Origin: a virus
Direction: 5' to 3' (one strand)
IMG/VR virus record: IMGVR_UViG_3300005617_000005
Coordinates: 13,875-77,874 of that record
DNA: 64,000 nt
Shown: positions 3 through 39,062 of the stretch, piece by piece
How the letters are laid out: each line of letters opens with the position of its first letter
How positions within the stretch are numbered: the stretch's first letter is position 1
Made by a program: the position numbers and the translations under genes
The notes under the pieces: generated by a model
Told to the model about the DNA's origin: nothing
Databases searched by the model: none
Seen by the model: the letters and a program-made list of their open reading frames with translations, nothing else

Positions 3-686
3 CAGCGCGCGCCGCGCGGGTTCGGCGCCGGCGGCGCATCGGCGTTCACGATGACGGCCGCGCAAGCGCTCAACGATCATCTCGATACGAACAACTGCGC
101 CGGCTGCAACGACATGACGTCGCAGCTTCGACAGCTCACGTTCGCGTTCAAGGCCGCGTACCTCACGGACACGGGGATCGCGCCGCAGGTGAACCTCAAC
201 ATGAGCAGCGCGCTCGCGATGACGGCCTACGGGCCGGGCACCGATCAAGCGCTCGCGCTCGTTCTCGGCGCTGCGAAGTCGTACACGAACGGTCCGTGCA
301 CCGACGACAGCGGCAACTGCCTCGGAAAAACCCCGACGCCGATCATCCCGCCGGCGGTCTCGGCGCTCGAGCAGCAAATCGTCAAAGCGATCATGAGCGC
401 GATCCAGCAAGCGCAATTCCTTCCGCAGCCCGAGCTCGTGAACGGGCTCGTGCAGGGCTTCGCCGCGCTGGTCAACCAGATCGGATTCGAGCTCGCGAAG
501 CTCAATCAGCCGAAGGACGGCCCGACGTTGATCGTCGACAAAACCGATCCGACCAAGACCGTCGTCGTGACAACGCCCCCGAAAGAGGGCTGGACTACGG
601 GCGAGAAGATCGCCGCCGGCGTCGGCGCCGGCGTCGCGCTCACGGCAGTGGCGCTTCTCGTGTACAATGTCGCCAAAAGGAGCTGA
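3..686 (+). CDS. Tail-anchored membrane protein, 5'-truncated by window edge
   Basis: Frame is open from base 3 (QRAPRGFGAGG...) upstream of the ATG at 51; ends in W-GA-rich TM helix-KRS. Confidence 0.7.
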   Translation, partial: QRAPRGFGAGGASAFTMTAAQALNDHLDTNNCAGCNDMTSQLRQLTFAFKAAYLTDTGIAPQVNLNMSSALAMTAYGPGTDQALALVLGAAKSYTNGPCTDDSGNCLGKTPTPIIPPAVSALEQQIVKAIMSAIQQAQFLPQPELVNGLVQGFAALVNQIGFELAKLNQPKDGPTLIVDKTDPTKTVVVTTPPKEGWTTGEKIAAGVGAGVALTAVALLVYNVAKRS

Positions 687-690
687 GACT

Positions 691-1335
691 ATGAACCGTG
701 TAGCGGCACTTCACCAATTGGCTCGAGCGCATCACGGGCTCGGGCGTGCGCGCGGAGAAGGTCTCGGCATTCCTGGTCCGTGGGGCAACGTTCCGGGGCA
801 AGCGATCGCCGCTGGCACGTACGAGATCAGCGGCACGCAGGTCTACCTGCGCGAGCAGCCGTCGACGTCGTCGGCCGACAAGGGCGCGTTCAACGCCACG
901 TACGGCGACAACGGCGGGAAGGTCGTCGGCGAGCCGGATCAGGTCGACTTCGATGGTCAGACCGGCGATCAGGGCGGTCTGCGCTTCGCTTCCGTCACCG
1001 TGAAGACCGGCGCGCTCGCCGGCAAGAGCGGTTTCGTCGCGATGAAGTACATGGCGCCGGTCGGTTGGACCGCGTCGCACGGCGGAACGGGCTCTGCACC
1101 CGCGGCACCGCCGCCGGTCGATCAGGGCGGTGGGGGTGGAGGCTCGACGCCGCCGCTCGCAATGACGGGCGACGCGTCCGAGAAGTGGAAGCCGTGGCTC
1201 ATCGGCGGGATCGCGGCGCTCGGCGCCGGCGGTCTCCTCTATCTGCTCTTCGGCACGAAGACAGGCAAGAAAGCTCGCCGGCGCGGCAAAGCACGCAGGC
1301 GTTTGCGCCGCATCCGTCGCGGCCGGAAGCGCTAG
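691..1335 (+). CDS. SH3b-like domain protein with Pro/Gly linker, C-terminal TM and Arg-rich tail
   Basis: VYLREQPSTSS...KSGFVAMKYMAP resembles bacterial SH3; WKPWLIGGIAALGAGGLLYLLF followed by a K/R tail; AAGGAG upstream of ATG 691. Confidence 0.65.
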   Translation: MNRVAALHQLARAHHGLGRARGEGLGIPGPWGNVPGQAIAAGTYEISGTQVYLREQPSTSSADKGAFNATYGDNGGKVVGEPDQVDFDGQTGDQGGLRFASVTVKTGALAGKSGFVAMKYMAPVGWTASHGGTGSAPAAPPPVDQGGGGGGSTPPLAMTGDASEKWKPWLIGGIAALGAGGLLYLLFGTKTGKKARRRGKARRRLRRIRRGRKR

Positions 1336-2446
1336 TTCAGTTTCTTCCTGAACGGCGACGTGCCCGTCTTGTCGTAGTACGCCGTCTCCCACGCGTGCAT
1401 CGCGTCGCGAAGCGTCGTTTCGAGCGGAAGCGCGTCGACCGCCTCGTCAGCCGCGCGCCGGCCGCGAGGATCAGGAAAAATCTGCTCGATCGTTTGGCCC
1501 TTGCGACTCAACCGAGCCGACTCCTGCCAGGGCCGGGCTTTTGGAGCGGTGGCGGTGCGGACGGTGCGGGCGGAGGCGTTCGATAAGGGCCAGTGAACAA
1601 TCCGGGATCGCACAACGGACACGGCACCGGTATTTTCCCGTGCGTCTCGCACTGAATGCTCCCCGCTTCGCGGCTCGCTTCTAGGTTGAGCTTTTTGGTC
1701 ATGCGAAGCGTTGCGCGAAGACTCCACACCTCGATCGTTTGCATGACGGCGTACACCGCGATGGCGGCGAGCGAGTAGACGAGCCACTGATCGGTCATGC
1801 CGGTTTCGCTTCGAGCGCAGCGTCGCGGATGCGCAGCCACGCTTCGATGTTGGCTGTTCGACCCGTTTCCTTCGCGTACTTTTCGGCTGCGTCGACGAAA
1901 CGTCGCGCCGAGTCGATGATGAACTTCGCGTCTTCTGCATCGAGCTCGATCTTCACTTTCATTCTTCCCACCGTTCCGGATGCTCTGGAATCCAGTCTTG
2001 AATTGGTACGCGCTCGGGGTCGCTCTCGAACGTGTTGATGCAGCGTCCGTCCGGCAATGTGATCTCTTTGATGTAGTCCCACTCACCGACGTCCCAGAAA
2101 ATCTCGACGACCCACCCGTTGCCGAGCTTGTAGTGTTCGTACCTCAGCTTCGTGATCGAAATCTCGCCGCGATCGACAGCGTTGAGCACGGCGAGAATCT
2201 CAGCGTCCGTGATCCCTTCGCGTTCGTCTCGCGCGAGAATCTTTTTGTCGAACCAGTCGGTCATTTCGCATCTCCGACGCGTGTGGCGCCGTTCGCTGAC
2301 GCCATGAACATGTGGCCATCACAATAGTTCGCATGGTCGTACGCATCGTTTCGACCGTCAGCGGCAGCGCGATGCCATTTCGCGTGATGCTTCGCCGGCT
2401 CGGTGCATCGTTCCCACTCGCACTGCGGTTTTTTCTCGTCTGTCAC
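1332..2446 (-). CDS. Coupled run of about 5 small hypothetical genes (2261-2446, 1959-2264, 1795-1962, 1508-1798, 1332-1511)
   Basis: 4-nt start/stop overlaps; phage-like small proteins. Confidence 0.6.
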
Positions 2447-2508
2447 GGGATGCGCTAGAGCATAGAACTACTTGCGCTTGAGCACAACTCTGGCGTATCG
2501 TTGGGCCC

Positions 2509-2871
2509 ATGAAAAAGAAGAGGCTCAAGCCCCTCGGTGATCGCATCATCGTCAAGCGGGCGGAAGCAGAGAAGACGTCGCGAGGCACGCACGGCTCGCC
2601 CATCATCATCCCGGACAGCGCTCTCGAAAAGATGTCCGAGGGTGTCATCATCCGAATCGGCCAGGGCAAAACCCAAGAGGACGGCTACGTGCGTCCGTTG
2701 GATGTGGCGGTTGGCCAAACCGTGCTCTTCAGCAAGCACGCTGGCACCGACGTCAAGGTCAACGGCGAGGAGCTGCTCATTCTTCACGAGGAAGACCTCT
2801 TCGGCGTGCTCGAGGAGTTCGACGACGAGGAAAAAGAAGCACCGACCGCGGACGCTACTGCTCCCTCATGA
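2509..2871 (+). CDS. groES: Co-chaperonin GroES
   Basis: LKPLGDRIIVKR...IIIPDSA.EK..EG.II.IG.GK...PLDV.VGQ.VLFSKHAGTDVKVNGEELLILHEEDLFGVLE. Confidence 0.95.
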   Translation: MKKKRLKPLGDRIIVKRAEAEKTSRGTHGSPIIIPDSALEKMSEGVIIRIGQGKTQEDGYVRPLDVAVGQTVLFSKHAGTDVKVNGEELLILHEEDLFGVLEEFDDEEKEAPTADATAPS

Positions 2872-3269
2872 GCGTCGCGTACGCATCCGTCACGCACGTT
2901 GAAGCGGCAGGGCTGCACGCGCTGCACGATCGTTTTTTGATCCTGCCCGACCCCGAAGAGAAGCGGTTGATCTGGCTTCCCGAGGACAAGTTCGCGAAGA
3001 ACCGCACCGGCCACATCGTTTCGATGGGCAAGGGCATGAAGGTCAACGGCAAGGGCACGATCTCTTGGGGCCATCGCGTCTTCAAGTGGAAGGGCGCGCT
3101 CGACGAGCTCGGCTTCAACCGCTGGAAGATGCCGCCCGTGAACATCGGCGACCACGTTGTTTATCTGACGTGGAGCTTGCACGTCATCTATATCAGCGGG
3201 GTCGAACACCATCTCGTTCGCGATACGTCGATCGAGGCTACGATCGAAGAGGAAGAAGAGAGCACATGA
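2868..3269 (+). CDS. Divergent GroES-like co-chaperonin
   Basis: ALHDRFLI...TGHIVSMGKG...VNIGDHVVY...ISGVEHHLVRDTSIEATIE follows the Cpn10 pattern with an insertion. Confidence 0.7.
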   Translation: MSVAYASVTHVEAAGLHALHDRFLILPDPEEKRLIWLPEDKFAKNRTGHIVSMGKGMKVNGKGTISWGHRVFKWKGALDELGFNRWKMPPVNIGDHVVYLTWSLHVIYISGVEHHLVRDTSIEATIEEEEEST

Positions 3270-3429
3270 GCGGATCACGTCCTGCATACCGAAAACCGAT
3301 TCGTCGCAAACCGGCGGTGTGCAAAACCAAAGGTTGCGGCAAACTCTGCACGAAGGGCGAGCGTCTCTGCAACGGGTGCAAGCTCGACATCGAGCACGGT
3401 CGCTACGGCAAGAAGAAACCTACGAAGGC

Positions 3430-3699: not shown

Positions 3700-3867
3700 C
3701 GCTACAAATTCTACCGGTCGTTGCTGTCATCCTTGGCCTGATCCTCTACTACCCGGACAAGCTCGGCGGAAAAACGAACGCGGTCGGTCTGAAACTTTTC
3801 TTCGCCGGGGTCCTTGCATTCTTGTTCTCGGGTGCGCATAGCATCTCGATTCACTGAGGAGACCGCG

Positions 3868-4173
3868 ATGGATTTCGGGGATGCAATTCGCGCATTGAAA
3901 AGTGGAAAGCGCGTTTCGCGCACTGGCTGGAACGGCAAAGGCATGTACCTGTTCTGGGGGCGTGCAATCGCGCTTGAACATCTGCCGCACGGCGTGAAAA
4001 TCAATACAGGGGCGTACGGCCATCCACCTCCCGAAGAAGTCGTGAAGATCATGGACAACGAGGGCCCCACGCCATCGATCTGCATGAAGACAGCGCAGAA
4101 CACGATCACCGTCGGCTGGCTTGCGTCGCAGACCGACATGCTCGCTGAGGATTGGGAGGTCGTCGATGGCTAG
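3868..4173 (+). CDS. DUF2829 family protein (Tad2-like anti-defence sponge family)
   Basis: MDFGDAIRALKSGKRVSRTGWNGKGMYL...GWLASQTDMLAEDWEVV; GAGGAG RBS. Confidence 0.85.
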   Translation: MDFGDAIRALKSGKRVSRTGWNGKGMYLFWGRAIALEHLPHGVKINTGAYGHPPPEEVVKIMDNEGPTPSICMKTAQNTITVGWLASQTDMLAEDWEVVDG

Positions 4174-4639: not shown

Positions 4640-5965
4640 TCGACGTACCCGACGAGAAGACCATCACGGGGCTCACGCGAAGCGAGCTGATCGCGATGGT
4701 CTACTCGTTGAAGAACGAACGTGACGAGAAAGAGCGCACGATCGTCAACTTTGGAAGCTGGATTGACCGTACAGGGTTTCGCACCGTGTATTCGCCCGGC
4801 GAGGTCGTTGGCGCTTGGGACGACGCGCGCGAGAAAGCAAAAACGCCGTGAGCTTCGCCCGCAAAGTCGCACGCCGCGCGCTTCGCAAAGAGTTGAAGAA
4901 GCCCGGCATCGGCAACCAGCGCGTCATCTGCAAAGAACACGGCAAGAAGCCGTGGCGCGGTGATCTCGTTTGTGGGAAGTGCGGCAAGATTCACTTCATC
5001 GTCGAGGAAACCGGCGAGCATCCGTCGATGCCCGACGATGTCTGCCCGTGCGGCGCGATCATGTTTCCGGTGCGCAACGAAGCGGGCGAGTTGTTGAAGG
5101 ACATTCCATTCTTCGGCCGCGTCGCTTGTCGACAATGCGCGTTGGCAGAAGCAGAGAAACAGAAAAATGCCGAAGCCGACGCCAAAAAACTCATCGAGCT
5201 CAAACTCGAACCGCCCTAGCCAGTGGCAGCGCTGGCGGAAGAGCACGCCGAAGAGTCGCATCGCAGCGGACAAGGCGATGATCGATGCCATCCGCGAGCT
5301 TTTCAAGATGGTGCCCCTCTACGACAGCGATCCGCTTTGCAGCGATCGAAAAGTGGGCGAGCGCTTCGAGCGACCGATCTACACCGAGATTCGCGGTCGT
5401 GGCATGCGCACGCGCTATGAGCTGTCTTGACGCGTCAGGTGCGCATCGCTAGATGAGTCGTTGGGGCATGATCGATTCCGACGTTCCGACGAAGCCGAGC
5501 GAGCACGGTCCGTGCGACCATCGCGACATGGCCGGTGATTCCCTCGTCGAGTCGAGAGGCAACAGGCACCGCTGTACGTCGTGCTCGGCGGAGTGGACCG
5601 TTGGACCGCACGAGGTCGTCATCGTGAACGACGAAACGATCGATACGAGGGCTGCATGACGGACAAGAAAATTATCGGCGGTGAAGATCTACGAGCACTT
5701 CTCGTCTTCAAGCCCAAAGCCATTCACGGAGCCTTCGGCTCGTTGTACGCGTGTGGCGGCACGCGTGAGATTTGGAGCGAAGACGAGCAGAAGAATGTGG
5801 TGTGCAGCGGTTGCTGCGATTGCCGTGAGGAGCCACTCGACGTCGACGAGAAGATCTCGTAAAGTGCTTCTCTAGGCCCGTCCGACCAGCGCGAACAAGC
5901 AAGAGGCGCAAGCCTCACCAACGCCATTGGGTACTCCTGCGTTGGTCACTCGGGCCGCATTCTTC

Positions 5966-6415
5966 ATGCCCACGCAAATCGTTCCGCACCTCTGGCAAGG
6001 ATCGCAGCCCATCGAGGGCACGGCGGTATCGAAAGCTGGTTACCGCGTGCTCGTGCTCTGCGCAGACGAGTACCAACCGCCGATGGATCGCTTCGTCGGG
6101 CTCGAGGACGTCATCTACGCGCCGAACGACGACGGTTTCAGACCGTTCTCGCCGCTCCAAAAGGTCACCGCGCAGATGGCCGCAGGTCGCGTCGCCGACT
6201 ACATCCGTCAGGGCAAGAATGTTCTCGTGACGTGCATGCAGGGGCGCAACCGCAGCGGGCTCGTCACCGCGCTCGCGCTCCACAATCTCTACGGGTGGGG
6301 CGGGACGCGGTGCGTCGACCACGTGCAATCGCGTCGTGCAAACGCGCTCACGAACGATGAATTCACGCGCTACCTGCGCTCGATCCCGGCAAAACAGTTC
6401 GCTCGGACCGGCTGA
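5966..6415 (+). CDS. Dual-specificity / protein-tyrosine phosphatase
   Basis: CX5R loop VLVTCMQGRNRSG; PTQIVPHLWQG N-terminus. Confidence 0.9.
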   Translation: MPTQIVPHLWQGSQPIEGTAVSKAGYRVLVLCADEYQPPMDRFVGLEDVIYAPNDDGFRPFSPLQKVTAQMAAGRVADYIRQGKNVLVTCMQGRNRSGLVTALALHNLYGWGGTRCVDHVQSRRANALTNDEFTRYLRSIPAKQFARTG

Positions 6416-8036: not shown

Positions 8037-9146
8037 ATGGGCACGCCGGCGCTTTCTCGACGCTATCCAATGAACGGCGGCGCGAGCGCCATGTACATCG
8101 GCGTCGACAAATTCACGCGGTGGCAATTCTCGCAGAGCCCAGAAGCGCAGCCCGAGTTCTTCGGCAACATCTACGAGGACTCCGAAACGCTGTCCGCAAC
8201 CGCGACGATGACCGAAACGTCAGAGCGTGTGGTGGAAACTGCACTGCCGCTCGTGTCAACGGCCGCGATCACAGAGAGCTCGATTGCCACAAGAGAGGCG
8301 ACGCAGCCGCTCGCCGCCACGAGCGGCTTTGCTCCGGCCGCGATCGAGACCATCGAGGTCGCCGAAACGCTTGCGGCGACCTCGAGCTTCTCGCCGGCGG
8401 CCACGCGCACCCAAGATGCCGCCGTTCCGCTCGCTGCGACAGCCGCGATCGCGGAGTCCGCAACGCGAACGCAGGACGTCGGCGTCCCGTTGGCGGGCAC
8501 ATCGACGTTTTCACCGTCGGCGGTCAAGACGATCGAGGCGTCGCAGGTGCTTTCGGCCACGTCCGTGCTCGCCGTCGCCGCCGTGATGGTCAAAGAGCCC
8601 ACTCAAACGCTCGCAGCAACAGCCGCGATCGCGCTCGGTGCGAGCACCACACGCGACGCCGGCGTTGCACTCGCGGCCACGAGCGGTCTCTCACTGCTCG
8701 CGCAACGCGTGATCGATGCACTGCAACCGCTTTCGGCCGTCGCCGGCGTCGCTTTCGACGGCGCGAAGGTCACCGAGGCGATTCAGGCACTCGCCGCGAC
8801 CGCCGGATACAGCGCGCACGGCTACGCCGGCGCCGATCAAGACGTGGAGCTCGACGCGATCGCGGACATCGACGTCGAGCAACAGCTCGTTCTCGACGCG
8901 ATCGCCGCGCTGGTCTGTACCGCGACGTTCTCCCCAGAAGATCCGCCCGCGCCGCCGGCGGGACCACCGGTCGAACTCGTCGCGCAGGTGTACGCACTCG
9001 CTGCGTCGTGGCGAAAAATGTCGACGCCGGCGGTGCTCGCCGACCTAGAACAGCTCGAGCAGCTCGCGCGCCAGGCCGGCTACGCCGCGATCCCCGTTCT
9101 TCCCATCCTGATCGAACTCCGCGCACGAATTCGCCGCCGGAAGTAG
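8037..9146 (+). CDS. Repeat-containing structural protein (about 21-aa LAAT repeats)
   Basis: Recurrent [P/T/A]LAAT[S/A].. units, about 10 copies. Confidence 0.6.
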   Translation: MGTPALSRRYPMNGGASAMYIGVDKFTRWQFSQSPEAQPEFFGNIYEDSETLSATATMTETSERVVETALPLVSTAAITESSIATREATQPLAATSGFAPAAIETIEVAETLAATSSFSPAATRTQDAAVPLAATAAIAESATRTQDVGVPLAGTSTFSPSAVKTIEASQVLSATSVLAVAAVMVKEPTQTLAATAAIALGASTTRDAGVALAATSGLSLLAQRVIDALQPLSAVAGVAFDGAKVTEAIQALAATAGYSAHGYAGADQDVELDAIADIDVEQQLVLDAIAALVCTATFSPEDPPAPPAGPPVELVAQVYALAASWRKMSTPAVLADLEQLEQLARQAGYAAIPVLPILIELRARIRRRK

Positions 9147-9156
9147 AATCACGGGC

Positions 9157-9780
9157 ATGCCTACCGCGCTCATCATCGGTGACAGCCACGTCGATCACAG
9201 TCCGATGGCGGCCGAATTGAAGCGGCTTCTTGAAGCGGACGGCTTCACGGTCACTGTCGGCGGCGTCGGAGGCTCGACGGCGAAGCAGTGGCTCACGACG
9301 AATCCTGTCTGCCGGCCGAAAAACGACTGGTGCGTCGACGCAAACACGCTTCCGCAACGTCCCGATCTGCTTCTCGTGTCGCTCGGCAGCAACGACATCG
9401 CGAACATGGCCTTGAACAAACAGCGCCCCGAGCCGATCGTCGCCGACGTCGTCAAGCTCATCGCTCGCTTCGCGCCGAAAACGTCGATGTGGATCGGTCC
9501 GCCGTGGTTCCGCGACTACGGTTGGTACAAAAATCAGTACAGCAAGCAGCTCTACGACGCCGCGCGCGCCGCCGACGTTCCGATTTTCGACTCGTGGTCG
9601 CCGACGCGCGCCGCTGTCGACGCAGGATCAGGCGACGGCGTGCACCTCGGCGCTGAAGGATCGAAGGTCTGGGCCGCGGCTGTTGTGAAAGCGGCCAAGA
9701 AATCATTCCCGTGGCTCGCGCTCGTCGCGATCGCGGGTGCTGCGGCCGTGGCTGCGGTGGTCATTTCGCGTCGTCGCTGA
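9157..9780 (+). CDS. SGNH/GDSL hydrolase with C-terminal TM anchor
   Basis: IIGDSH, GSND and DGVHL blocks; PWLALVAIAGAAAVAAVVISRRR. Confidence 0.85.
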   Translation: MPTALIIGDSHVDHSPMAAELKRLLEADGFTVTVGGVGGSTAKQWLTTNPVCRPKNDWCVDANTLPQRPDLLLVSLGSNDIANMALNKQRPEPIVADVVKLIARFAPKTSMWIGPPWFRDYGWYKNQYSKQLYDAARAADVPIFDSWSPTRAAVDAGSGDGVHLGAEGSKVWAAAVVKAAKKSFPWLALVAIAGAAAVAAVVISRRR

Positions 9781-27881: not shown

Positions 27882-27937
27882 GCCCGGACCCTAATCCAGC
27901 CTTGCGTGCGGCGCAAAAGTGCGCGTATTCTCTCGCC

Positions 27938-28743: not shown

Positions 28744-30486
28744 ATGGGCGCACCGAACGAGAAAGAATCCGACCTCCGAGCTCGTGTCGAACGGCTCGAG
28801 CACCTCCTCGCCATGTTGCAGGGAGGCAGTGCACCGGGTCAGACCTTTGCCGGTCCCATCGTCGCGAACGAAGCGGCAATGGTCGCGCTCACCGGCATTC
28901 AAGACGGTGAGCAGGTCTTCGTTCTGAGCCACCGCTCGATCTGGACGAAGCGAAACGGCGTCGCCGGCACACAAGGTGTCCCGCCGCTCTTTCCACACGA
29001 GGTCGATCAAGCCACCGACCTCACCGGCGTCTTTGCCCGAACGCCATATTCCGATCCCGCGCTCCGTACCGGCATCAACGACGTCTTCATCGATCCGGCG
29101 AATCCAGCGGCAGACGATGAGAATGATGGCCTCACTGCGCTGACACCGCTCGCGACAGGCTACGAGCTTTTCCGCCGCTGGGGTTGGGGCGCATCGAAAC
29201 CGATCGTTGGACCAAACCTCGCGACGTCGCCCGACGGTTTCACAAACGTCCACATTCAAAGCGCCATCCTTTCGCCCGACACGCTTCCGGTGCGCATCAC
29301 GATCGCGACCAACGGCAGCATGCGCTTCATTGGCGGCGCGCCGACGACGATTCGCGCGGGAACACTCACCGCTGCGAGCGTCGCAATGAATGCGGCAGTA
29401 CCGCTCGGGGGAACGCGCCTTCGACTCACCGACGCCGCTGTCGTTTCGTGGGTCCCGGACATGGCCCCGAATCGTCGCGGTCGAATCACAACGGGGGCGC
29501 AAGCCGGCGCGACCTTCCAACCACAAAGCAATGTCGGAGCTGGCGGCGCTGTCGATTGCAGCGCAGCGCAAACAACCAACGAGCCGGGCTTCAGCCAAGT
29601 GCCGACGACCGTCACGCCGGCTGCGGGCAGTGCCTACGTGATCGAAGCGCTCGTGCAGTGCAACTTCGGTCAAGTGGAGATCACGCAAGAGCAAAATCCT
29701 GATTTCGGTGGGTTCAACAGCTTCATCAACTTCATCGATCTGAATTTCCCCGTCATCGGAACAAACGCTGTCGGGTGGGAACCCGTCACGGCAGCGGGCA
29801 CATTCAGCCAACCGTTCTTCAATTTCTACCAGTGCACGTTCGAGCGAAACCTCGATGTCACCTCGTGCTCCTCCGTGCAGCTCATCGCTTGCTACTTCTT
29901 CAACATGCTCGTGCTCAACTACTGCACGGGCGGCATTCAAGCGGTCAACGGCGGTGGGATGAATTCCATCGCGCCTGGCGTCTCGGGCGTCAAATGGGCG
30001 GCGGTCAGTGATCAGAGCTTGCTCGATTTCAACTTCGTCGCGAACCACTCCCTGATCAACCTGATGGGGAATTCGGTCGGAGGCGGGTTCGCGTCGTGGA
30101 ACGCTGACACTCTTGCCGGGTACAACACCGCAGGGCACGGCGTGATCGTCGGCGTTCGAGGCTTCGCAGGAATGCGCGCGCAAGTCACCTTCGCCAGACT
30201 CGTTTGGGGAAACGGCAACGCTGGCGCCGGTCTTCTCATCGGTGCGAATTGCAATGGAACCGGCGCGCCACAAAACATCACCGGGGTACAGAGCGACTTC
30301 AAGCTCGGCAACAAGCTCGTCGGTTGGTGGTTCAACGATGCGACGGCGGCGTACAATCCGATCGGCGGTAGCGTCGCGACGACATGGGCAGCTCTCGCAG
30401 CGGCCGAAGGTGCAGCGGGCTTCGGCGGAAACGCCCACGAGCTCGACTCGAACAGCCACTTTGCCGCAGCCGAGACGACAGCGTAA
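28744..30486 (+). CDS. Putative spike/fibre protein 2 (beta-helix-like)
   Basis: Shared N-terminal module; FIDP...DDENDG....PL.T motif; G/N-rich C-terminus. Confidence 0.7.
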   Translation: MGAPNEKESDLRARVERLEHLLAMLQGGSAPGQTFAGPIVANEAAMVALTGIQDGEQVFVLSHRSIWTKRNGVAGTQGVPPLFPHEVDQATDLTGVFARTPYSDPALRTGINDVFIDPANPAADDENDGLTALTPLATGYELFRRWGWGASKPIVGPNLATSPDGFTNVHIQSAILSPDTLPVRITIATNGSMRFIGGAPTTIRAGTLTAASVAMNAAVPLGGTRLRLTDAAVVSWVPDMAPNRRGRITTGAQAGATFQPQSNVGAGGAVDCSAAQTTNEPGFSQVPTTVTPAAGSAYVIEALVQCNFGQVEITQEQNPDFGGFNSFINFIDLNFPVIGTNAVGWEPVTAAGTFSQPFFNFYQCTFERNLDVTSCSSVQLIACYFFNMLVLNYCTGGIQAVNGGGMNSIAPGVSGVKWAAVSDQSLLDFNFVANHSLINLMGNSVGGGFASWNADTLAGYNTAGHGVIVGVRGFAGMRAQVTFARLVWGNGNAGAGLLIGANCNGTGAPQNITGVQSDFKLGNKLVGWWFNDATAAYNPIGGSVATTWAALAAAEGAAGFGGNAHELDSNSHFAAAETTA

Positions 30487-30494: not shown

Positions 30495-31952
30495 ATGGGT
30501 ACCTATCGAGAAGCAATTCAGCATGCGCGCGTAGGCGGTACGGCGCGCTGCGGCGGCAAAGAGATTCGGTTTCTCACCTTCGAGGAAGCGGAGCCGATCA
30601 TCTTGGATGCAATCCCATCGCGTCGAACGGTTATCGGCGCAAATGGAAAACCGCTTATCGAGGACACCAAGATCGTGGTCGAGACGTTCGCTGACCCGAA
30701 CTTCGACACGAAGAAGTTCGGTCTCTACGACGTTGGCGTACACCCTGCCGCTCCGTTCACTCCAAGCGACGAGGACATCTACCTTCCCCTCGAGCACGAT
30801 GACGAGGGCAATCCGAAGCCGCGCGCGCTTCGAGCCGACTGGGAGCTTCTCAGCGACGAAAAACCTGAAGTCGTCGAGCCCGAAGTCGTCGCACCCGAAG
30901 TCGTCGACGAGGCGCTCAGCGAAACGATCCCCGAAACACTCGGCGCGATCGACACGGAGCCACCGCAATGATTCAGGTCGGCGACATACTTCTCCTCACG
31001 GACACGGCCACACTCGTCCAAGTCATCGACGGCAACGATGACGACGGATGGGATTGTCTCAACGAGCAGCACGGCGTGCTCTTCAAGATCGGCGACACCG
31101 CTGCACTGCAAGCGCAAGCCACTTTCGGTGCAACGCCCGAGGCCGATCGCCCGGCGCCCGGCACGCTCGTTTGCACGTTTGCGTCGAAGCCTACCGCGAA
31201 GTGGAACCTCGACGGCTACGCGACAACCCCCGCATTCGGCCCCGGTCAGATTTGGGCCGTTCTCACCAACATCGACGACCCCACGATCTCGTGCTTCGTC
31301 GATCAAAACAGCATTTTCCTTCCATCCGGTGCGCCATGAACGACAAACAGAAAAAGTGCTCTGGCTTCCCCGGCAAGCCGGGCGAATGCAAAGCGGCAGC
31401 GACCGCCGTGGTGATCCGCGCGCGCCAGCACGTGTGTGAGGAGCACGCGAAGCAGGCCGAAGCCAAAAAGTTCCAAGCGCAGCGCGCGGAGAAAAAGTCA
31501 TGACCACGCTTGGACAGTTCGTAGGCTTCGCGGGACGAAGCGTCGGTTCCGTGATCGACGGATCGGGCACGGACGCTGATCCGTGGAAGTTCGAGTTTCA
31601 GAGCAAGGACGGCGGCTCCACCTCCGTGGAGGTCCGCGACGAGACGGGCTTCTACTTCGAGTACATTCCGCTGCTCGACACGCCAGCCGGCTATCACGCC
31701 GCAGGTGATCTCGTCGACTTCAGGCCCGTCGAAGCAGTCTTTCAAGGCTTCGTCGGCGGTCCCTACCCCAAGGGCGTCGTCTCGCGAACGCTTCAGGTCT
31801 TCGGCTGGGTGAACTACACCTTCCACTACAACGGCGAGGCGTATCCGAACACGACCGATCCGTACGCTGTCCTCGCAGATCCCGACAACGCGGGCTGCTA
31901 CATTCTCGCCAATCTCCTCGAGCTCGAAAATCTCACGCCCGTCGCCGCATGA
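30495..31952 (+). CDS. Four coupled hypothetical genes (30495-30971, 30968-31339, 31336-31503, 31500-31952)
   Basis: AAGGAG RBS at the first gene; ATGA overlaps. Confidence 0.65.
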
Positions 31953-33340
31953 TGACCCCCAACGAGCTCGCCAGGCTCGAGCGGCTCGAGTTGCTCGTTG
32001 GCCTTCTCCAGAATTCATCTGGAATCGAGCCGCTCATCGGCGACGTCAACGGCCCGAGCAACGCGAACGCGCTCACGCAGATTGCCGCTCTCGCCGGCGG
32101 CGGCAACCAGCTCGTCGGCGTGGACAACGCCGGCTTCATCACTGTCGGTGTCGTCCCGCCGCCCGGCCCACAAGCAATGGGTGGCGACGTCACGGGCACC
32201 ACGGCTGCCAGCGTCATCTCGAAAATCCAAGCGCTCGCGGGCGGTGGTGTTCGCTTCGTAGCGGTCGACAACGCCGGCAACGTCGGCACGGCGGTTCCGC
32301 CCGCGCCGCCGGCGAACTACCCGATGGGTGGCGACGTCACGGGCACCACCAGCGCCTCCACCGTCGTGAAGATCAACGGCGCTTCCGTACCTGTTTCCGG
32401 CGCGCTCACGACAGGCAATCTTCTGCAAGTCACGGGAGCAGCGGCACTCGGCTACGCGGCGCTCAACCTTGCAGGCGGAGCCAACTTCGTCACCGGCGTT
32501 TTGCCGGAAGCGAATCAAGCCGATCAGACCATGGGCGGCGACGTCACTGGCTCGACGAGCGCTGCGACCGTCGTCAAGGTCAACGGTGCGACCGTCCCGG
32601 CAGCCGGCGCACTGACTCCTGGCAACTCGCTGCTCGTCACGGGTGCAGGCGCGCTCGGCTACGGCGCAGTGAATCTCGCTGGCGGTGCAGCGTCCGTCAC
32701 CGGCGTCCTTCCCGAGGCGAACCAGGCCGACCAAACGATGGCCGGCGACGTCACGGGTTCAACAGGCGCGAGCGTTCTCTCGAAGATTGCGGCACTCGGT
32801 GGAAGCGGCACGGTTGCCGTCAACGTAGACAACGCAGGCAATGTCATCTCGGGCGGCGCGCCGGCGACGGCCGATCCGTTTGCTTTTCTCTCGACAACCA
32901 CGGACAACCTCGTCGCATCGTCGGCGGTGAAGAACTACGACTTCGATCTCTCGGGCGCTGCGTTCACGAACAAGCTGATCCGCATGCGTGCGCGTGGCTA
33001 CGCGACGACGAAAGACACGGGCGGCGTTGCGGGTGCGAACCTTACGGGCAGCGCGCACGTGCAGACCGATGCGGTCTACGAGAACAAGAACGGCACGGTG
33101 ACGTTCGTGTCGGCTGCCGCCGGCGGCGCCGCGAACCCGATGCCGGCAGTCAACAACGAGATGACCCTTCAACCGCAAGCATGCGATGCGGCGCTTCAGT
33201 CGGGCGGCGGCGCGCCTCCCAACCTCGCGTGGACGGTAACGGGCGGAACGACCGCGCGCTTACAGCTCACGGCTACGAACAACGTGAACCGCGGAAGCTG
33301 GGAGATCGACGTATACCAACGCGTGAAGGCGGCTCCATGA
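31949..33340 (+). CDS. Putative fibre protein 3 with GDVTG repeats
   Basis: Five GDV[T/N]G-initiated repeats; N-terminal PNELARLERLELL. Confidence 0.7.
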   Translation: MMTPNELARLERLELLVGLLQNSSGIEPLIGDVNGPSNANALTQIAALAGGGNQLVGVDNAGFITVGVVPPPGPQAMGGDVTGTTAASVISKIQALAGGGVRFVAVDNAGNVGTAVPPAPPANYPMGGDVTGTTSASTVVKINGASVPVSGALTTGNLLQVTGAAALGYAALNLAGGANFVTGVLPEANQADQTMGGDVTGSTSAATVVKVNGATVPAAGALTPGNSLLVTGAGALGYGAVNLAGGAASVTGVLPEANQADQTMAGDVTGSTGASVLSKIAALGGSGTVAVNVDNAGNVISGGAPATADPFAFLSTTTDNLVASSAVKNYDFDLSGAAFTNKLIRMRARGYATTKDTGGVAGANLTGSAHVQTDAVYENKNGTVTFVSAAAGGAANPMPAVNNEMTLQPQACDAALQSGGGAPPNLAWTVTGGTTARLQLTATNNVNRGSWEIDVYQRVKAAP

Positions 33341-33872: not shown

Positions 33873-33908
33873 GGGTCGGATCATACCTGCCGCATGGTAG
33901 ATTGAACC

Positions 33909-34265
33909 ATGCCGCCGACGTCGCCCTGGGACAAACTTCTCGAACACGGCGTTCTGGGAATTGTCCTCCTGATTGCGCTCTACGTGATCTCGTACCTTTG
34001 GCGACGACTCAATCAAGAGCGCGATGCGAAAGACGAGATGCAAAAAGCGCACGCCGCTGCAATGTTGGCGCAGCAAAAAGAGCACACTGCGACGATCGCG
34101 GCGCTTCAAGAGCAACGGCTTCAGAGCACGGAAAAAATAACCGGGGCGCTCATCAATGCGACCGCTGCCGTGAACAAATCGGCTGAAACCGGTAGCGAGA
34201 CCAACGATCTCTTGCGTTCGATCGCGAACGACTATCAGAATAGGCATCGGGGGCCACCACGATGA
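33909..34265 (+). CDS. Holin-like protein (one TM plus coiled coil)
   Basis: HGVLGIVLLIALYVISYLW, then coiled coil; near a lipoprotein and the GH25 lysin. Confidence 0.5.
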   Translation: MPPTSPWDKLLEHGVLGIVLLIALYVISYLWRRLNQERDAKDEMQKAHAAAMLAQQKEHTATIAALQEQRLQSTEKITGALINATAAVNKSAETGSETNDLLRSIANDYQNRHRGPPR

Positions 34266-34506: not shown

Positions 34507-34731
34507 ATGCGCACCTTGTTCATCCCGCTCCTCGCCTTCTCCACGGCGTGCCACGACGAATCGAAACCTGTCGTTACGCCAAACGGCCCCTCGGCAGATT
34601 GCAGCGCTGAGCGTATCCAGCAAGAGCTGGAGTGCGTGAAAACGAACTCGACGCGCGCCGGCGCCGACAAGTGCATCGCCGATCTACCGAAGAAGGACTG
34701 CACGAAGCTCGCGCCTGACGGAGGTGCGTGA
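34507..34731 (+). CDS. Small lipoprotein
   Basis: MRTLFIPLLAFSTAC lipobox. Confidence 0.65.
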   Translation: MRTLFIPLLAFSTACHDESKPVVTPNGPSADCSAERIQQELECVKTNSTRAGADKCIADLPKKDCTKLAPDGGA

Positions 34732-36870: not shown

Positions 36871-37625
36871 TTCGCGGACCAGACGTTTCAGCGTACCAAC
36901 CGAACGTTCTCTGGAAGAAAGTTCGCGACGCCGGCGCCGAGTTCTCGATCATCAAAGTCACCGACGGCAACAACTACACGAACCCGCTCGCGAAGGCGCA
37001 AGTGCTCGGCGCGTTCGCGGTCGGCTTGCTGGTGATGCTTTATCACTTCGCGCAGCCCAACGGAAAACCGGGCGACCTCGAATCGTGGAAAGCGGACGCG
37101 CGCGCGGAAGCGAAGCGGCTCGATGATCTCGCCGACGAGTTCGAGGGCGCACTCGGTACATATCCTGTCGGTCATCCGCGTCAGGGCGAAGCGATCAAGC
37201 TCTTCTGCTTTCTCGACGTCGAGCGCAACACACCGCTCACTGCGGAAGAGAGACCGTACTGGCGAGCGTGGTGCAACGAGTTCCGCCGGTGGTGCCGCGA
37301 AGAGGGCAAGCGCGTGATCGGCTTCTACAGCGGGAAGTTCTTCACGATGGATCTCGGCTTCGACTCGAGCTGGTCGCAGACGATTCTCTGGGTCGCGCAA
37401 TACCCACGCCCGTACAGAGAGGACGCGAACTACGGCTACTGGCCAAAAACGATTGTGCCGTGGTGGCGCGGGGACATCTGGCAGGACGGTGGGGGCATGT
37501 CGAACGCCGCCGGCGGCAACGAATCGAAGTGGCCCGGCGTCGGCGACGGCAGCACGTTTTCCGACGTCAATGTGTTCGCCGGTTCACGCTCGGAGCTCGA
37601 AGAATTGCTTCAAGCCGCCGCGTGA
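36867..37625 (+). CDS. GH25 muramidase (endolysin)
   Basis: DVSAYQ, IKVTDG, YHF, LDVE, LWVAQY, WQ, DVNVF. Confidence 0.9.
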   Translation: MIRGPDVSAYQPNVLWKKVRDAGAEFSIIKVTDGNNYTNPLAKAQVLGAFAVGLLVMLYHFAQPNGKPGDLESWKADARAEAKRLDDLADEFEGALGTYPVGHPRQGEAIKLFCFLDVERNTPLTAEERPYWRAWCNEFRRWCREEGKRVIGFYSGKFFTMDLGFDSSWSQTILWVAQYPRPYREDANYGYWPKTIVPWWRGDIWQDGGGMSNAAGGNESKWPGVGDGSTFSDVNVFAGSRSELEELLQAAA

Positions 37626-37720
37626 CGCTGGTATAGTTGGGCTGGTGCTCGACGACTGAGCCCGTGACCAAAAGGGGATGCAATGAACAAGGAACCGCTT
37701 GCGCGCGGCGTGGTGCACTG

Positions 37721-38092
37721 ATGCCGCTCATCGAATCCGTTTTCACCACCGGACAAGACCCTGAGCAGCTTGTTGCGCGCGTACGTGTAGACCGCACTGA
37801 AGTCATCCGAAACGGTGACGTCTTTCCGCACTTCGCCGGCCACCAATACTACGCGCTCAGCACGATGCGACTGATCGACGGACCGGAGGGCGAGTGGCGC
37901 GGCTCTCCAACGGAGCACGAGCTCCCGTGGCCATCGGACACGAGGTTGGTCGAAGTCGTCGTGCGCCCCATCAACGGATCCGCACGAGTGTTCACCTCGC
38001 GTGCACCGGGACACGGAAAACGTGGGCCAAAGCCAAAATCCAACGGCGTGATCCCCCACGAGCCCTTTTCCAGCGACAAAGCAGCGGAGTAG
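37721..38092 (+). CDS. Hypothetical protein preceded by a 12-codon uORF
   Basis: TGATG coupling with uORF 37683-37721. Confidence 0.55.
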   Translation: MPLIESVFTTGQDPEQLVARVRVDRTEVIRNGDVFPHFAGHQYYALSTMRLIDGPEGEWRGSPTEHELPWPSDTRLVEVVVRPINGSARVFTSRAPGHGKRGPKPKSNGVIPHEPFSSDKAAE

Positions 38093-38124
38093 CGACCTCG
38101 AGCGTGTTCGGCTAGTCTCGGCAC

Positions 38125-38652
38125 GTGGCCACCCCGCTCGCCTTCGCCGCGGCCGTTCTCGACCGGCTGGGGCTGTCCAGGACCGAAAACCGGCTCGTAG
38201 GGCTGGTTGCCTTCGTCGCCATCGAGGGCGGGCATTGGCACGACAGCGCGCGGTTCAACCCGCTCAACACCATGAAGAGCGCTCCGGGCGCGACCCAGGC
38301 GCCGGGGCTCCTCACGGGCATCAAGTCGTACCCGGATTGGCAGACGGGCATCAATGCGACCGCCGCAACGATCGTGCAAAGCAACATGCACTCGATCGCC
38401 CAAGCGTTGAAAGATGACGTCGACCCGCGATCGTTTCTCCGTGCCGTGACGCAGTCCGCGTGGTGTCCTGGGTGCGACTACACGCCGTTCGACCCGTACG
38501 CGCTCTACAAAGCGAAGGCGAACGAGAACGACTCCAGCGCTCTCGCGTACAGCGCGAGCGGCACGAACTGGAAAACCGTAGCGGTCGTCGGCGGCATCTT
38601 CGCCGGCGCCGGCGCGGCGGTGTGGTGGGTCAAGAAACGCTTTCTGAGGTGA
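38125..38652 (+). CDS. Lysozyme-like domain protein with C-terminal TM anchor
   Basis: AIEGG...FNPLNT...IKSYPDWQTGINATAATI; WKTVAVVGGIFAGAGAAVWWVKKR. Confidence 0.65.
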   Translation: MATPLAFAAAVLDRLGLSRTENRLVGLVAFVAIEGGHWHDSARFNPLNTMKSAPGATQAPGLLTGIKSYPDWQTGINATAATIVQSNMHSIAQALKDDVDPRSFLRAVTQSAWCPGCDYTPFDPYALYKAKANENDSSALAYSASGTNWKTVAVVGGIFAGAGAAVWWVKKRFLR

Positions 38653-39062
38653 TGACAATGCAAGGTCTTCAAAAAACAGTTCACGCCGACACGGAGTTCT
38701 GGTCCCTGCCGCCGAACTACCCGAACGCGATCATGGCCTACAAGCTCCCGGCGGGAGTGAAGATTCGGCCCGACGCCCAAGGCACCGAGCGTGACGGCTA
38801 CGCGCACGTGTACGATCCGGCGAACAAAGAAGGTTGGATCGCGGTCGGCGACCTCACACCGTTCGAGGACTCTGTTCGTACGCCGATTCCGACGCCGGCG
38901 CCCGCGCCGAAGCCGTCGACGCCACCGCCCGCGTCCAACAGCTCGATGATCGGCTCCGGCATCGACTGGAAGACCGTCGGTTACGCCGCTGGTGCGGTGG
39001 GCGGTGCGTTGCTGCTCTTCGGCGGCGCCGCGTACTACCTCAAGAAGCGCCGCCGGCGCTGA
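38652..39062 (+). CDS. SH3b-like protein, Pro linker, C-terminal TM anchor
   Basis: LPAGVKI...DGYAHVYDPANKEGWI; WKTVGYAAGAVGGALLLFGGAAYYLKKRRRR. Confidence 0.65.
   Translation: MTMQGLQKTVHADTEFWSLPPNYPNAIMAYKLPAGVKIRPDAQGTERDGYAHVYDPANKEGWIAVGDLTPFEDSVRTPIPTPAPAPKPSTPPPASNSSMIGSGIDWKTVGYAAGAVGGALLLFGGAAYYLKKRRRR

What the first reader, a model, noticed from the sequence alone, without database searches (positions are those of the whole stretch)
3..39062. Dispersed family of signal-peptide-less, C-terminally anchored cell-wall proteins (W-GA-rich TM-poly K/R)
Seen: five unrelated proteins (3-686, 691-1335 SH3-like, 9157-9780 SGNH, 38125-38652 lysozyme-like, 38652-39062 SH3-like) end with Trp, a Gly/Ala-rich TM helix and a basic tail (GWTT, KWKPW, FPW, NWKT, DWKT). 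The four with visible N-termini lack a Sec signal. Known: this resembles LPXTG, GlyGly-CTERM and MYXO-CTERM architecture, but those normally need a signal peptide. Inference: a sorting tag that loads cargo into an internal virion membrane, implying an unusually large lipid-containing, possibly non-tailed, virus.
Basis: partly seen in the sequence, partly recalled or inferred. Interest (0 to 1): 0.72.

Follow-up and report, generated by a model that had tools for sequence, protein, structure and literature searches.

The report
Tail-anchored enzymes of a tailless virus
An uncultured 78-kb soil bacterial virus hangs several unrelated proteins, some of them cell-wall enzymes, on a membrane by a helix at their far end without any export signal, and the virus itself has jelly-roll shell proteins and no tailed-phage genes, so it probably carries its own lipid membrane.

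Summary
All five ORFs end in Trp, a Gly/Ala-rich hydrophobic helix and a Lys/Arg tail. None has an N-terminal hydrophobic signal. Two further members lie upstream of the window.

These are tail-anchored membrane proteins, not members of any known CTERM or LPXTG sorting family. No curated model reaches its cut-off. An HMM built from the five tails finds nothing beyond its own seeds. The anchor is modular: a close relative carries a near-identical tail on an SLT transglycosylase that is 48% identical to PRD1 P7.

The window is 64 kb of a complete, circularly assembled 77.8-kb virus. This virus and four relatives show 0 of 5 matches to two terminase families, to the Phage_capsid (HK97-type) model, to one portal family, to Pox_A32 and to FtsK_SpoIIIE. 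Two adjacent conserved proteins fold as jelly rolls with weak Z (5.9 and 7.5). They sit in a block full of membrane proteins, including a 44% Lys+Arg membrane protein.

A double jelly roll and a conserved packaging ATPase are not. Two members beside the GH25 endolysin may instead be lysis proteins of the published C-terminal-TMD endolysin type (M4Lys, Enc34).

The scan noted the same kind of virus before on other DNA (e1-5987314, e1-5949946, e1-6083043).

The parts
3..686 (+). 3' part of a 330-aa tail-anchored protein (full gene L001:13568-14560). Trp motif to last codon 588-683; TM 609-665; tail NVAKRS. First gene after the conserved jelly-roll block.
   Evidence: No Pfam, PHROG or NCBIfam family.
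691..1335 (+). 214-aa tail-anchored protein of unknown N-domain. Trp motif to last codon 1183-1332; TM 1198-1254 (6 Gly in 19 residues); 26-residue tail with 17 Lys/Arg.
   Evidence: No family. PDB sequence search gave nothing.
9157..9780 (+). 207-aa SGNH/GDSL hydrolase that starts directly with the catalytic block (IIGDSH). Trp motif to last codon 9706-9777; TM 9715-9765; tail SRRR.
   Evidence: Pfam Lipase_GDSL_2 E 6e-12 and Lipase_GDSL E 8.5e-8.
38125..38652 (+). 175-aa tail-anchored protein whose N-domain belongs to an uncharacterised family (invariant Glu34 in AIEGGHW). Trp motif to last codon 38566-38649; TM 38578-38631; tail KKRFLR. Lies 500 bases downstream of the GH25 endolysin.
   Evidence: All 13 family homologues keep an aromatic residue (Trp in 11) followed by a Gly-rich helix. 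P0135 carries a tail 93% identical (as listed) on an SLT domain.
38652..39062 (+). 136-aa tail-anchored protein; its start overlaps the stop of the previous gene. Trp motif to last codon 38964-39059; TM 38976-39041 (6 Gly and 6 Ala in 22 residues); tail KKRRRR.
   Evidence: Only sub-threshold hits (LPXTG_anchor 15.0 bits against cut-off 15.9, on TM and basic part only; TIGR04211 SH3_and_anchor E 0.06).
36873..37625 (+). GH25 muramidase (endolysin), soluble; context for the two anchored proteins downstream.
   Evidence: Pfam Glyco_hydro_25 E 7.8e-23; PHROG endolysin families.
33909..34265 (+). 118-aa protein with an N-terminal TM followed by a polar, helix-like sequence: i-spanin-like. Points to a diderm host.
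   Evidence: TM 8-32. Inference from architecture only.
34507..34731 (+). 74-aa lipoprotein with a lipobox (LAFSTAC): o-spanin-like. Shows that the virus uses ordinary signal peptides where it needs export.
   Evidence: sequence. Inference from the lipobox.
40720..40950 (-). 76-aa protein with the mirror build: N-terminal polybasic run (MRHRRKRRHNPSD), Trp, then TM. Resembles L001:4150-4386 in that build.
54403..56298 (+). 631-aa HerA/FtsK-like ATPase. Not part of the conserved virion kit.
   Evidence: DUF87 E 2e-6; phrog_2666 E 7.3e-19; PDB HerA chains; 0 of 5 relatives have it.
63396..63998 (+). Start of an Ig-like virion protein that runs across the circular junction into L001:1-510; first gene of the conserved structural block.
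   Evidence: PHROG virion-structural and fibre families; 50-base terminal repeat.

Best explanation
The proteins are tail-anchored membrane proteins: a soluble N-terminal domain, no export signal, and one Gly/Ala-rich (mostly glycine-zipper-like) helix near the C-terminus. An interfacial Trp sits on one side of the helix and a Lys/Arg cluster on the other.

The anchor is a portable module rather than a conserved motif; the virus and its relatives have put it on many unrelated cargoes.

The virus is a complete 77.8-kb member of a large uncultured clade. It has no recognisable tailed-phage head, portal, terminase or tail genes. Its conserved structural block holds two jelly-roll proteins, a protamine-like membrane protein and several other membrane proteins.

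Most likely (inferred) the anchors fasten cargo to a virus-specific lipid membrane that ends up inside the particle. That cargo includes an SGNH esterase, a transglutaminase-like cysteine peptidase and the 175-aa protein, which a close relative replaces with an SLT transglycosylase. There the enzymes would be carried to the next cell wall, as PRD1 carries P7. The polybasic tails and the protamine-like protein would face the DNA.

The two anchored proteins next to the GH25 endolysin may also, or instead, act at lysis.

Shown: the architecture, the absence of a signal, the modularity, the gene content and the jelly-roll models. Inferred: membrane insertion, topology, presence in virions, and any lipid at all.
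For: Architecture and absence of a signal.

Enrichment: 10 of 79 proteins flagged here (7 convincing), against 0 of 50 in Mx8 and 1 of 34 in B3.

Modularity:
- P0135 is an SLT domain (PF01464) with a tail listed as 93% identical to that of 38125-38652.
- Its SLT domain is 48% identical over 82 residues to PRD1 P7 (E 2e-22).
- PRD1 P7 itself has no N-terminal TM and one TM at residues 213-243 of 265.

Same design in relatives, with different cargo:
- 6-11 C-anchored proteins flagged per complete relative.
- Cargo of this genome's five window members and of the 107-aa upstream member has no blastp match in three relatives.
- The transglutaminase-like anchored protein is conserved in 3 of 3 relatives. 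Invariant Cys, His and Asp positions occur in 6 of 6 aligned sequences.

Genome: 77,874 bases with a 50-base terminal repeat.

No tailed-phage hallmarks:
- Pfam on 85 and 12 proteins and PHROGs on 55 and 12 proteins of this genome.
- Pfam on 110 proteins of two complete relatives.
- Six-frame searches gave 0 of 5 for Terminase_6N, TerL_ATPase, Phage_capsid and Phage_portal, with the control genomes matching.

Jelly rolls:

Membrane-rich conserved block, including a protein with 44% Lys+Arg over 275 residues followed by hydrophobic segments.

Precedent for missing motors: membrane-containing jelly-roll viruses without a packaging ATPase exist (SPV1, FLiP; passages read in PMC8812541).
Against: - No lipid, virion proteome or particle image exists.
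An HK97 fold there is therefore not excluded.
- Only some terminase, portal and capsid families were searched in six frames.
- The five window members are not conserved in relatives, so they are accessory rather than core.
- Two sit beside the endolysin, and relatives also have anchored polybasic proteins within about 2 kb of their endolysins. This fits a lysis role.
- Topology is a problem. By the positive-inside rule the Lys/Arg tail should stay in the cytoplasm, which would put a 100-500-residue N-domain outside without a signal. The classical tail-anchor topology would instead push up to 17 positive charges across the membrane.
- Only one of five cargo domains is a recognisable hydrolase.
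Confidence: 0.5

Rival explanations
1. They are lysis proteins of the 'endolysin with C-terminal TMD' type. A muralytic or wall-binding domain is tethered to the inner membrane by a holin-like helix with a charged end, and reaches or is released onto the wall at lysis without a holin or Sec. On this reading the virus could still be a tailed phage with unrecognisable structural genes.
For: Published cases:
- M4Lys of Salmonella phage BSPM4. Passages read in PMC7143992 report that there is no signal sequence, the TMD is indispensable, lysis is unaffected by a Sec inhibitor, three positive charges follow the TMD, and the N-terminus is predicted to be periplasmic.
- Enc34 ORF39. Passages read in PMC8943055 describe an N-terminal enzymatic domain and a C-terminal TM domain, located between a holin and spanins.
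- LysAP of phage AP1 (search listing only).

Here, 38125-38652 and 38652-39062 follow the GH25 endolysin. A relative swaps the cargo for an SLT domain. Relatives have anchored polybasic proteins near their endolysins.
Against: - It explains two of seven members well. Three others (539 aa, 330 aa, 214 aa) lie in or directly after the conserved structural block, far from the lysis genes.
- A soluble GH25 enzyme is already present.
- The count per genome (6-11 flagged) exceeds any known lysis cassette.
- No homology to PHA02564-type domains was seen in any scan, though that family was not searched by name.
- The tailed-phage part is contradicted.
Confidence: 0.25
2. The tails are a processed sorting signal of the LPXTG, GlyGly-CTERM, MYXO-CTERM or PEP-CTERM kind. 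A host sortase-like enzyme would cut them after Sec export.
For: The three-part look: a short motif with Trp, a helix, and a basic tail. There are sub-threshold hits to LPXTG_anchor (15.0 bits against 15.9), GVDTG_CTERM (19.4 against 29) and Loki-CTERM (15.7 against 19.9). One of two genome hits for the capsid-like protein is a 2.3-kb contig binned to a Polyangiaceae MAG.
Against: - The sub-threshold hits cover only the helix and basic part, not the signature motif. Pfam gives nothing.
- No N-terminal signal peptide is present. The SGNH catalytic block starts at residue 8.
- No shared motif exists: the five-tail HMM finds only its seeds.
- No sortase, rhombosortase or exosortase family appears in the Pfam scans of this genome.
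Confidence: 0.03
3. Nothing special: ordinary single-pass membrane proteins and gene-calling artefacts that happen to have their helix at the end.
For: Trp at the interface and Lys/Arg flanks are generic features of TM helices. The tail HMM does not generalise. At least one ORF flagged by my script looks spurious (window 60940-61311).
Against: - Enrichment over two control phages.
- High third-position GC of these ORFs (0.77-0.86).
- The 175-aa protein's 13 family homologues (E<=0.001) all keep the anchor.
- A near-identical tail occurs on a different enzyme.
Confidence: 0.07

Closest known systems
PRD1 P7 (Tectiviridae), virion internal-membrane transglycosylase
   Same: The enzyme domain starts at residue 1 with no signal, and there is one TM near the C-terminus (213-243 of 265). 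A close relative of this virus has an SLT domain 48% identical to P7 over 82 residues, carrying the same tail as window 38125-38652.
   Different: - PRD1 is 15 kb, with a double-jelly-roll P3 and the packaging ATPase P9 (annotation). Here the genome is 78 kb, the models are single-jelly-roll-like, and no ATPase is conserved.
- The P7 tail has few positive charges; these tails carry 2-17 Lys/Arg.
- PRD1 has one such enzyme; this genome has about seven anchored proteins.
Endolysins with a C-terminal TMD: M4Lys (phage BSPM4), Enc34 ORF39, LysAP (phage AP1)
   Same: N-terminal enzyme, no signal, and a C-terminal TM with a positively charged end. They lie in the lysis cassette (passages read).
   Different: Those are single genes of tailed phages with PHA02564-type domains, and Enc34 has a two-helix TM. 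Here the architecture is spread over unrelated cargo, most of it outside the lysis region, and no PHA02564 similarity was seen.
Sulfolobus polyhedral virus 1 (Portogloboviridae) and the Helvetiavirae (P23-77, HHIV-2, HCIV-1)
   Same: - Jelly-roll capsid proteins encoded side by side and an internal membrane.
- SPV1 has no packaging ATPase (PMC8812541 passages).
- SPV1, HHIV-2, HCIV-1 and P23-77 chains are among the structural matches of both models.
   Different: - Those genomes are about 17-30 kb by my recollection.
- SPV1 infects archaea, whereas this virus has a GH25 muramidase, lipobox lipoproteins and GroES-like genes.
- No sequence homology was found.
Bacterial tail-anchored inner-membrane proteins (ElaB/YqjD/YgaM, DjlC, Flk; recalled, no call)
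   Same: No signal, a single C-terminal helix, and a short basic end. By my recollection the ElaB family ends in Pro-Trp, a Gly-rich helix and Arg-Arg.
   Different: No Pfam or NCBIfam match of the tails to any such family. The cargoes are viral and partly enzymatic, and the tails are far more basic.

Membership tests
LPXTG / sortase substrates | LPXTG-type motif before the helix, matched by the curated model | tested here: not met
   TIGR01167 gives 15.0, 12.8 and 13.4 bits against a cut-off of 15.9, aligned to model positions after the motif only. Pfam Gram_pos_anchor gives 13.6 against 20.
LPXTG / sortase substrates | N-terminal Sec signal peptide | tested here: not met
   No hydrophobic window of 1.5 or more outside the C-terminal helix in the five proteins. 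This is my own hydropathy script, not SignalP.
GlyGly-CTERM, MYXO-CTERM, PEP-CTERM and other CTERM sorting domains | Match to the NCBIfam sorting-domain model over its cut-off | tested here: not met
   NCBIfam scan of 7 proteins and 5 isolated tails at E<=1. Only GVDTG_CTERM (19.4 against 29) and Loki-CTERM (15.7 against 19.9) appear, on one tail.
GlyGly-CTERM, MYXO-CTERM, PEP-CTERM and other CTERM sorting domains | Cognate sorting enzyme (rhombosortase, exosortase, archaeosortase) | tested here: not met
   No such Pfam family among the 97 proteins of this genome scanned. A host-encoded enzyme cannot be tested because the host is unknown.
Tail-anchored membrane proteins (general class) | A single TM near the C-terminus, no N-terminal signal or other TM, and a sizeable N-domain | tested here: met
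   Met for the five window proteins. The 539-aa upstream member has further hydrophobic segments.
Tail-anchored membrane proteins (general class) | Post-translational insertion with the N-domain in the cytoplasm | not testable with these tools
   Needs fractionation and topology reporters.
C-terminal-TMD endolysins (M4Lys / Enc34 type) | Muralytic N-domain of the PHA02564 family | tested here: inconclusive
   No family at all for 38125-38652 or 38652-39062 in Pfam, PHROGs, NCBIfam or PDB sequences. PHA02564 itself was not searched by name.
C-terminal-TMD endolysins (M4Lys / Enc34 type) | C-terminal TMD with a charged end, gene in the lysis cassette | tested here: met
   Met for 38125-38652 and 38652-39062, downstream of GH25. 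Not met for the other members.
Caudoviricetes (tailed phages) | Large terminase, portal, HK97-fold capsid protein | tested here: not met
   0 of 5 genomes for PF03237, PF03354, PF05065 and PF04860, with controls matching. None in the Pfam or PHROG scans. Caveat: other terminase and portal families were not searched in six frames, and one conserved 339-aa protein was not folded.
Varidnaviria with DJR capsid (Tectiviridae-like) | [quoted passage not shown] | tested here: inconclusive
   [not shown]
Varidnaviria with DJR capsid (Tectiviridae-like) | Conserved FtsK/HerA (A32-type) packaging ATPase | tested here: not met
   The HerA-like gene of this genome is in 0 of 5 relatives. PF04665 and PF01580 give 0 of 5.
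Portogloboviridae-like build (SPV1) | Single jelly-roll capsid proteins, an internal membrane, and no packaging ATPase | tested here: inconclusive
   [not shown]

The most novel reading that the evidence does not exclude
The Trp, glycine-zipper and polybasic anchors are the loading device of a new lineage of large (60-80 kb and more) bacterial viruses that have a jelly-roll shell, an inner lipid membrane and no packaging motor. Any soluble domain given this tail is inserted into the virus membrane without Sec. Wall-digesting enzymes end up on one face. The polybasic tails, together with a membrane-bound protamine-like protein, hold and condense the DNA on the other face. The conserved, itself anchored, transglutaminase-like cysteine peptidase could be the maturation enzyme of this system.
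Probability: 0.3. Interest if true: 0.85.

Novelty: new variant of a known kind. Interest (0 to 1): 0.66.

Why it matters
Membrane-containing, tailless bacterial viruses known from culture are small: PRD1 is 15 kb, and by my recollection the largest is about 44 kb.

If this 78-kb clade really builds a jelly-roll shell around a lipid membrane without a packaging motor, three consequences follow:
- It enlarges that class several-fold.
- It offers a bacterial system in which virion-membrane proteins can be recognised from sequence by their tail anchors.
- It makes testable how proteins without signals are sorted to a viral membrane, and how a long genome is condensed without a motor.

The portable anchor is also a practical handle. 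The same tail on different wall enzymes suggests a natural way of tethering lysins to membranes.

Tried and rejected
Only the seeds scored, plus one ORF of relative G003 (E 1.8e-4) with the six-seed model. There is no sequence family.
- Pfam on nine isolated tails at E<=10: nothing meaningful, and no DUF883-type glycine-zipper family.
- HerA-like ATPase as the packaging enzyme: rejected, 0 of 5 relatives.
- A Walker-A-like motif in the protein upstream of the capsid-like gene: a chance product of its Lys/Arg run.
- The conserved ~500-aa acidic and proline-rich protein as portal or terminase: low-complexity, with no such features.
- ESM Atlas on the 339-aa and 248-aa proteins: no usable lead. 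The PM2 P2_N/P2_C hit at 0.76 is at chance level.
- Foldseek of the 488-aa model against PDB and BFVD: 0 matches at E<=0.001.
- The 175-aa protein's family against PDB sequences and against the SLT domain of P0135 by hhalign (probability 0.1): no relation, so 'lysozyme-like' stays unproven.
- The two 'SH3-like' proteins compared with each other: no similarity.
- Cultured relatives: neither the 488-aa nor the 248-aa protein matches any of 50,697 GenBank phage records. DNA polymerase hits are 22-25% identical.
- Host: two hits on 2.3-kb and 4.4-kb MAG contigs (Polyangiaceae, Chloroflexota), too short to trust.
- Literature: two full-text searches found no description of such a clade. That is not proof that none exists.

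Full report
**What is in the window.** Translation of the five stated ORFs shows the described ends.

| Window ORF | Length | Before the helix | Helix length | After the helix |
|---|---|---|---|---|
| 3-686 | part of 330 aa | GWTTGEK | 19 residues | NVAKRS |
| 691-1335 | 214 aa | KWKPW | 19 residues | 26 residues, 17 K/R |
| 9157-9780 | 207 aa | FPW | 17 residues | SRRR |
| 38125-38652 | 175 aa | NWKT | 18 residues | KKRFLR |
| 38652-39062 | 136 aa | DWKT | 22 residues | KKRRRR |

The helices are rich in Gly and Ala, for example 6 Gly and 6 Ala in 22 residues. The ORFs have the high third-position GC of real genes in this 62% GC sequence (0.77-0.86).

**The whole genome.** The window is bases 13,875-77,874 of a single 77,874-base contig. 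Its first and last 50 bases are identical, so this is a circularly assembled complete genome. ORF 3-686 is the end of a 330-aa gene (L001:13568-14560).

The 13.9 kb upstream holds two more proteins of the same build. One is a 539-aa protein with a weak Transglut_core match (E 1.4e-4, 22.6 bits against cut-off 23) and the end PAWVW-IGGGVVVVGGVLAIVY-RDEIKRW...RRRRRAA. The other is a 107-aa protein on the minus strand.

**No signal peptides, and more than chance.**
- Outside the C-terminal helix, none of the five has a 15-residue hydropathy window of 1.5 or more.
- The SGNH enzyme begins with its catalytic block at residue 8, leaving no room for a leader.
- The virus does use ordinary signals elsewhere. 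Two proteins have lipoboxes (window 26675-27160 and 34507-34731) and several have N-terminal anchors.
- My script flags 10 of 79 proteins of 100 aa or more here. Seven are convincing on inspection and one is probably a spurious ORF. It flags 0 of 50 in phage Mx8 and 1 of 34 in phage B3 (Fisher p 0.004).
- The controls are only two phages and the gene calls are my own.

**Not a known sorting family, and not a sequence motif.**
- NCBIfam on seven proteins and five isolated tails gave only sub-threshold hits: LPXTG_anchor 15.0 against 15.9, GVDTG_CTERM 19.4 against 29, Loki-CTERM 15.7 against 19.9. All lie on the helix-plus-basic part.
- Pfam on nine tails gave nothing.
It did not find even the upstream members (six-seed version).
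- The 'family' is therefore an architecture and a composition, not a conserved tag.

**The anchor is a portable module.**
- The 175-aa protein has 14 other matches at E<=0.001 among 768 candidates. Thirteen are family homologues over the whole domain.
- All thirteen keep an aromatic residue (Trp in 11) followed by a Gly-rich helix. Some carry longer ends.
- The fourteenth match, P0135 (160 aa), has a different N-domain: an SLT transglycosylase (PF01464) that starts at residue 1. Its tail is listed as 93% identical to that of the 175-aa protein.
- That SLT domain is 48% identical over 82 residues to PRD1 P7 (E 2e-22).
- PRD1 P7, read from the record, has no N-terminal hydrophobic segment and one TM at 213-243 of 265.
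- The cargo labels 'lysozyme-like' and 'SH3-like' could not be confirmed.

**What kind of virus this is.**
- Pfam on 85 window and 12 upstream proteins, and PHROGs on 55 and 12, found replication, recombination and nucleotide genes, an integrase, a GH25 endolysin, two Cpn10 genes and a Tad2-like gene. They found no terminase, portal, HK97 capsid or tail family.
- The only 'terminase' label is phrog_2666 on a 631-aa HerA/FtsK-like ATPase. That gene is absent from 0 of 5 related virus records, four of them at least 90% complete.
- The most conserved structural protein (488 aa, L001:10207-11673) has 187 relatives at E<=0.001 among the 8,000 candidates scored. None has a Pfam domain, and many lie on contigs of 60-80 kb. 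Seven related loci exist in IMG/VR. No match exists in 50,697 GenBank phage records.
- Three complete relatives were fetched. They share with this genome the 539-aa anchored protein, a 158-aa protein, the basic membrane protein (2 of 3 by blastp), the 488-, 248- and 339-aa proteins, and replication genes.
- Pfam on 110 of their proteins shows no tailed-phage hallmark. Only proteins of 110 aa or more were scanned, and six that crossed my cut points were left out.
- Six-frame family searches over five genomes gave 0 of 5 for Terminase_6N, TerL_ATPase, Phage_capsid, Phage_portal, Pox_A32 and FtsK_SpoIIIE. The control genomes matched each time.

**Folds.**
- The 488-aa protein (40-sequence alignment; pLDDT 77.8, pTM 0.71) has no Foldseek match at E<=0.001.
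- The adjacent 248-aa protein has 91 relatives at E<=0.001. Folded on a 68-sequence alignment (pLDDT 86.6), it shows an eight-stranded sandwich at residues 72-221.
- Its matches are EhV-201 capsid 7.5, PBCV-1 6.8, ASFV p72 6.4, D13-like 6.3, HHIV-2 6.3, STIV 6.2, Faustovirus 6.2, phiCjT23 6.0, SPV1 5.6 and FLiP 5.5. Non-viral PHM scores 7.3 and dopamine beta-hydroxylase 6.8.
- Foldseek gives three hits at E<=0.001 (IBDV VP2, BMV, CCMV). SPV1 appears at probability 0.99.
- Both proteins are therefore jelly-roll-like, most simply single jelly rolls. The evidence is middling.

**A membrane-rich structural block.** Across relatives the same order recurs:
1. an Ig-like protein;
2. an acidic, proline-rich ~500-aa protein;
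3. a multi-TM 350-490-aa protein;
4. small proteins with an N-terminal polybasic run, 'NP', Trp and a TM;
5. the transglutaminase-like anchored protein;
6. the 158-aa protein;
7. a 500-640-aa protein with 44% Lys+Arg over 275 residues, followed by hydrophobic segments and a proline-rich end;
8. the two jelly-roll proteins;
9. the 270-340-aa protein;
10. in two of the relatives (loci L004 and L007/L008), as in this genome, a C-anchored protein.

The transglutaminase-like protein keeps Cys, His and Asp positions in 6 of 6 sequences. Fibre-like proteins lack TM helices. This would fit spikes mounted on a protein shell with the membrane inside.

**How it most likely works.**
- Shown: the architecture, its modularity, the gene content and the jelly-roll models.
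- Inferred: the anchors insert cargo post-translationally into a virus-specific membrane that is taken into the particle. On that membrane, wall-active enzymes travel to the next host, as PRD1 P7 does. The polybasic tails and the protamine-like protein face the DNA.
- The lack of a packaging ATPase is not fatal. SPV1 and FLiP, both membrane-containing jelly-roll viruses, also lack one (passages of PMC8812541).
- The weak point is topology. The positive-inside rule argues for the tail in the cytoplasm and the N-domain outside. The absence of a signal argues the opposite.

**The main rival.**
- Endolysins with an N-terminal enzyme, no signal and a C-terminal TMD with a charged end are published for tailed phages. 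For M4Lys the TMD is indispensable and lysis is unaffected by a Sec inhibitor (passages of PMC7143992). Enc34 ORF39 is a second case (passages of PMC8943055). LysAP is a third (search listing only).
- Window 38125-38652 and 38652-39062 lie just after the GH25 endolysin. Relatives have anchored polybasic proteins near their endolysins.
- I therefore rate a lysis role for these two as about as likely as a virion role.
- That role does not account for the members in the structural block, nor for the number per genome.

**Earlier notes of this scan.** These were consulted after my own analysis.
- e1-5987314 and e1-5949946 describe large tailless soil viruses with jelly-roll capsid genes.
- e1-6083043 describes a membrane-anchored protamine-like core protein.
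- e1-5531652 and e1-809285 describe shared C-terminal anchors on wall-active proteins.

All are on other DNA. They agree with this reading but are not independent evidence.

**Verdict.** The thing itself is a new variant of known tail-anchored viral enzymes, set in a virus lineage that looks new and is described only in unchecked notes of this scan. Two literature searches found no paper on it.

Noticed in passing
L004:4960-7263 (relative G003): The transglutaminase-like anchored protein of this relative carries an insertion of about 330 residues directly before the invariant catalytic Cys-Asp-Asp. It begins with Cys and ends ...Ser-Asn before the Cys, so it looks like an intein.
   Followed up: no
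L001:4150-4386; window 40720-40950 (-); relatives, e.g. L003:4140-4595: Small proteins begin with a polybasic run, then Asn-Pro, Trp and a TM helix (e.g. RRRRRKRNPSD...W...). An 'ENP' also sits just before the TM of the basic membrane protein, and after the TM in long homologues of the 175-aa protein. This may be a recognition or cleavage motif.
   Followed up: partly
L001:8161-10083: The protein directly upstream of the capsid-like gene has 44% Lys+Arg over residues 101-375, then two or three hydrophobic segments and a proline-rich end (...NWG). It is conserved in position in relatives. Its Walker-A-like motif is a chance product of its composition.
   Followed up: partly
window 54403-56298: A HerA/FtsK-like ATPase of 631 aa lies among the replication genes. 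It is present in this genome only (0 of 5 relatives). One GenBank 'Caudoviricetes sp.' record has a 41% identical 'hera helicase'.
   Followed up: partly
window 27902-28705, 28744-30486, 31949-33340; L001:12552-13571: Three fibre-like proteins and the conserved 339-aa structural protein share a similar N-terminal heptad-like motif (E..L..R.E.LE). This may be a common adaptor for attachment to the particle.
   Followed up: no
window 2509-2871, 2868-3269, 3814-4173, 5927-6415, 51017-53527: Two adjacent Cpn10 (GroES) genes, a Tad2-like anti-Thoeris gene, a dual-specificity phosphatase, and a DNA polymerase A fused to an N-terminal uracil-DNA glycosylase domain. The fusion is kept in the two relatives scanned.
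   Followed up: no
window 8037-9146: A 369-aa protein with internal Ala/Thr-rich repeats, just upstream of the SGNH gene. It ends in a short hydrophobic stretch plus RARIRRRK; this is not a clear TM.
   Followed up: no
L022, L023: The only hits of the capsid-like protein in 185,579 species genomes are 2.3-kb and 4.4-kb contigs binned to a Polyangiaceae MAG and a Chloroflexota MAG. This is a weak lead to the host.
   Followed up: no
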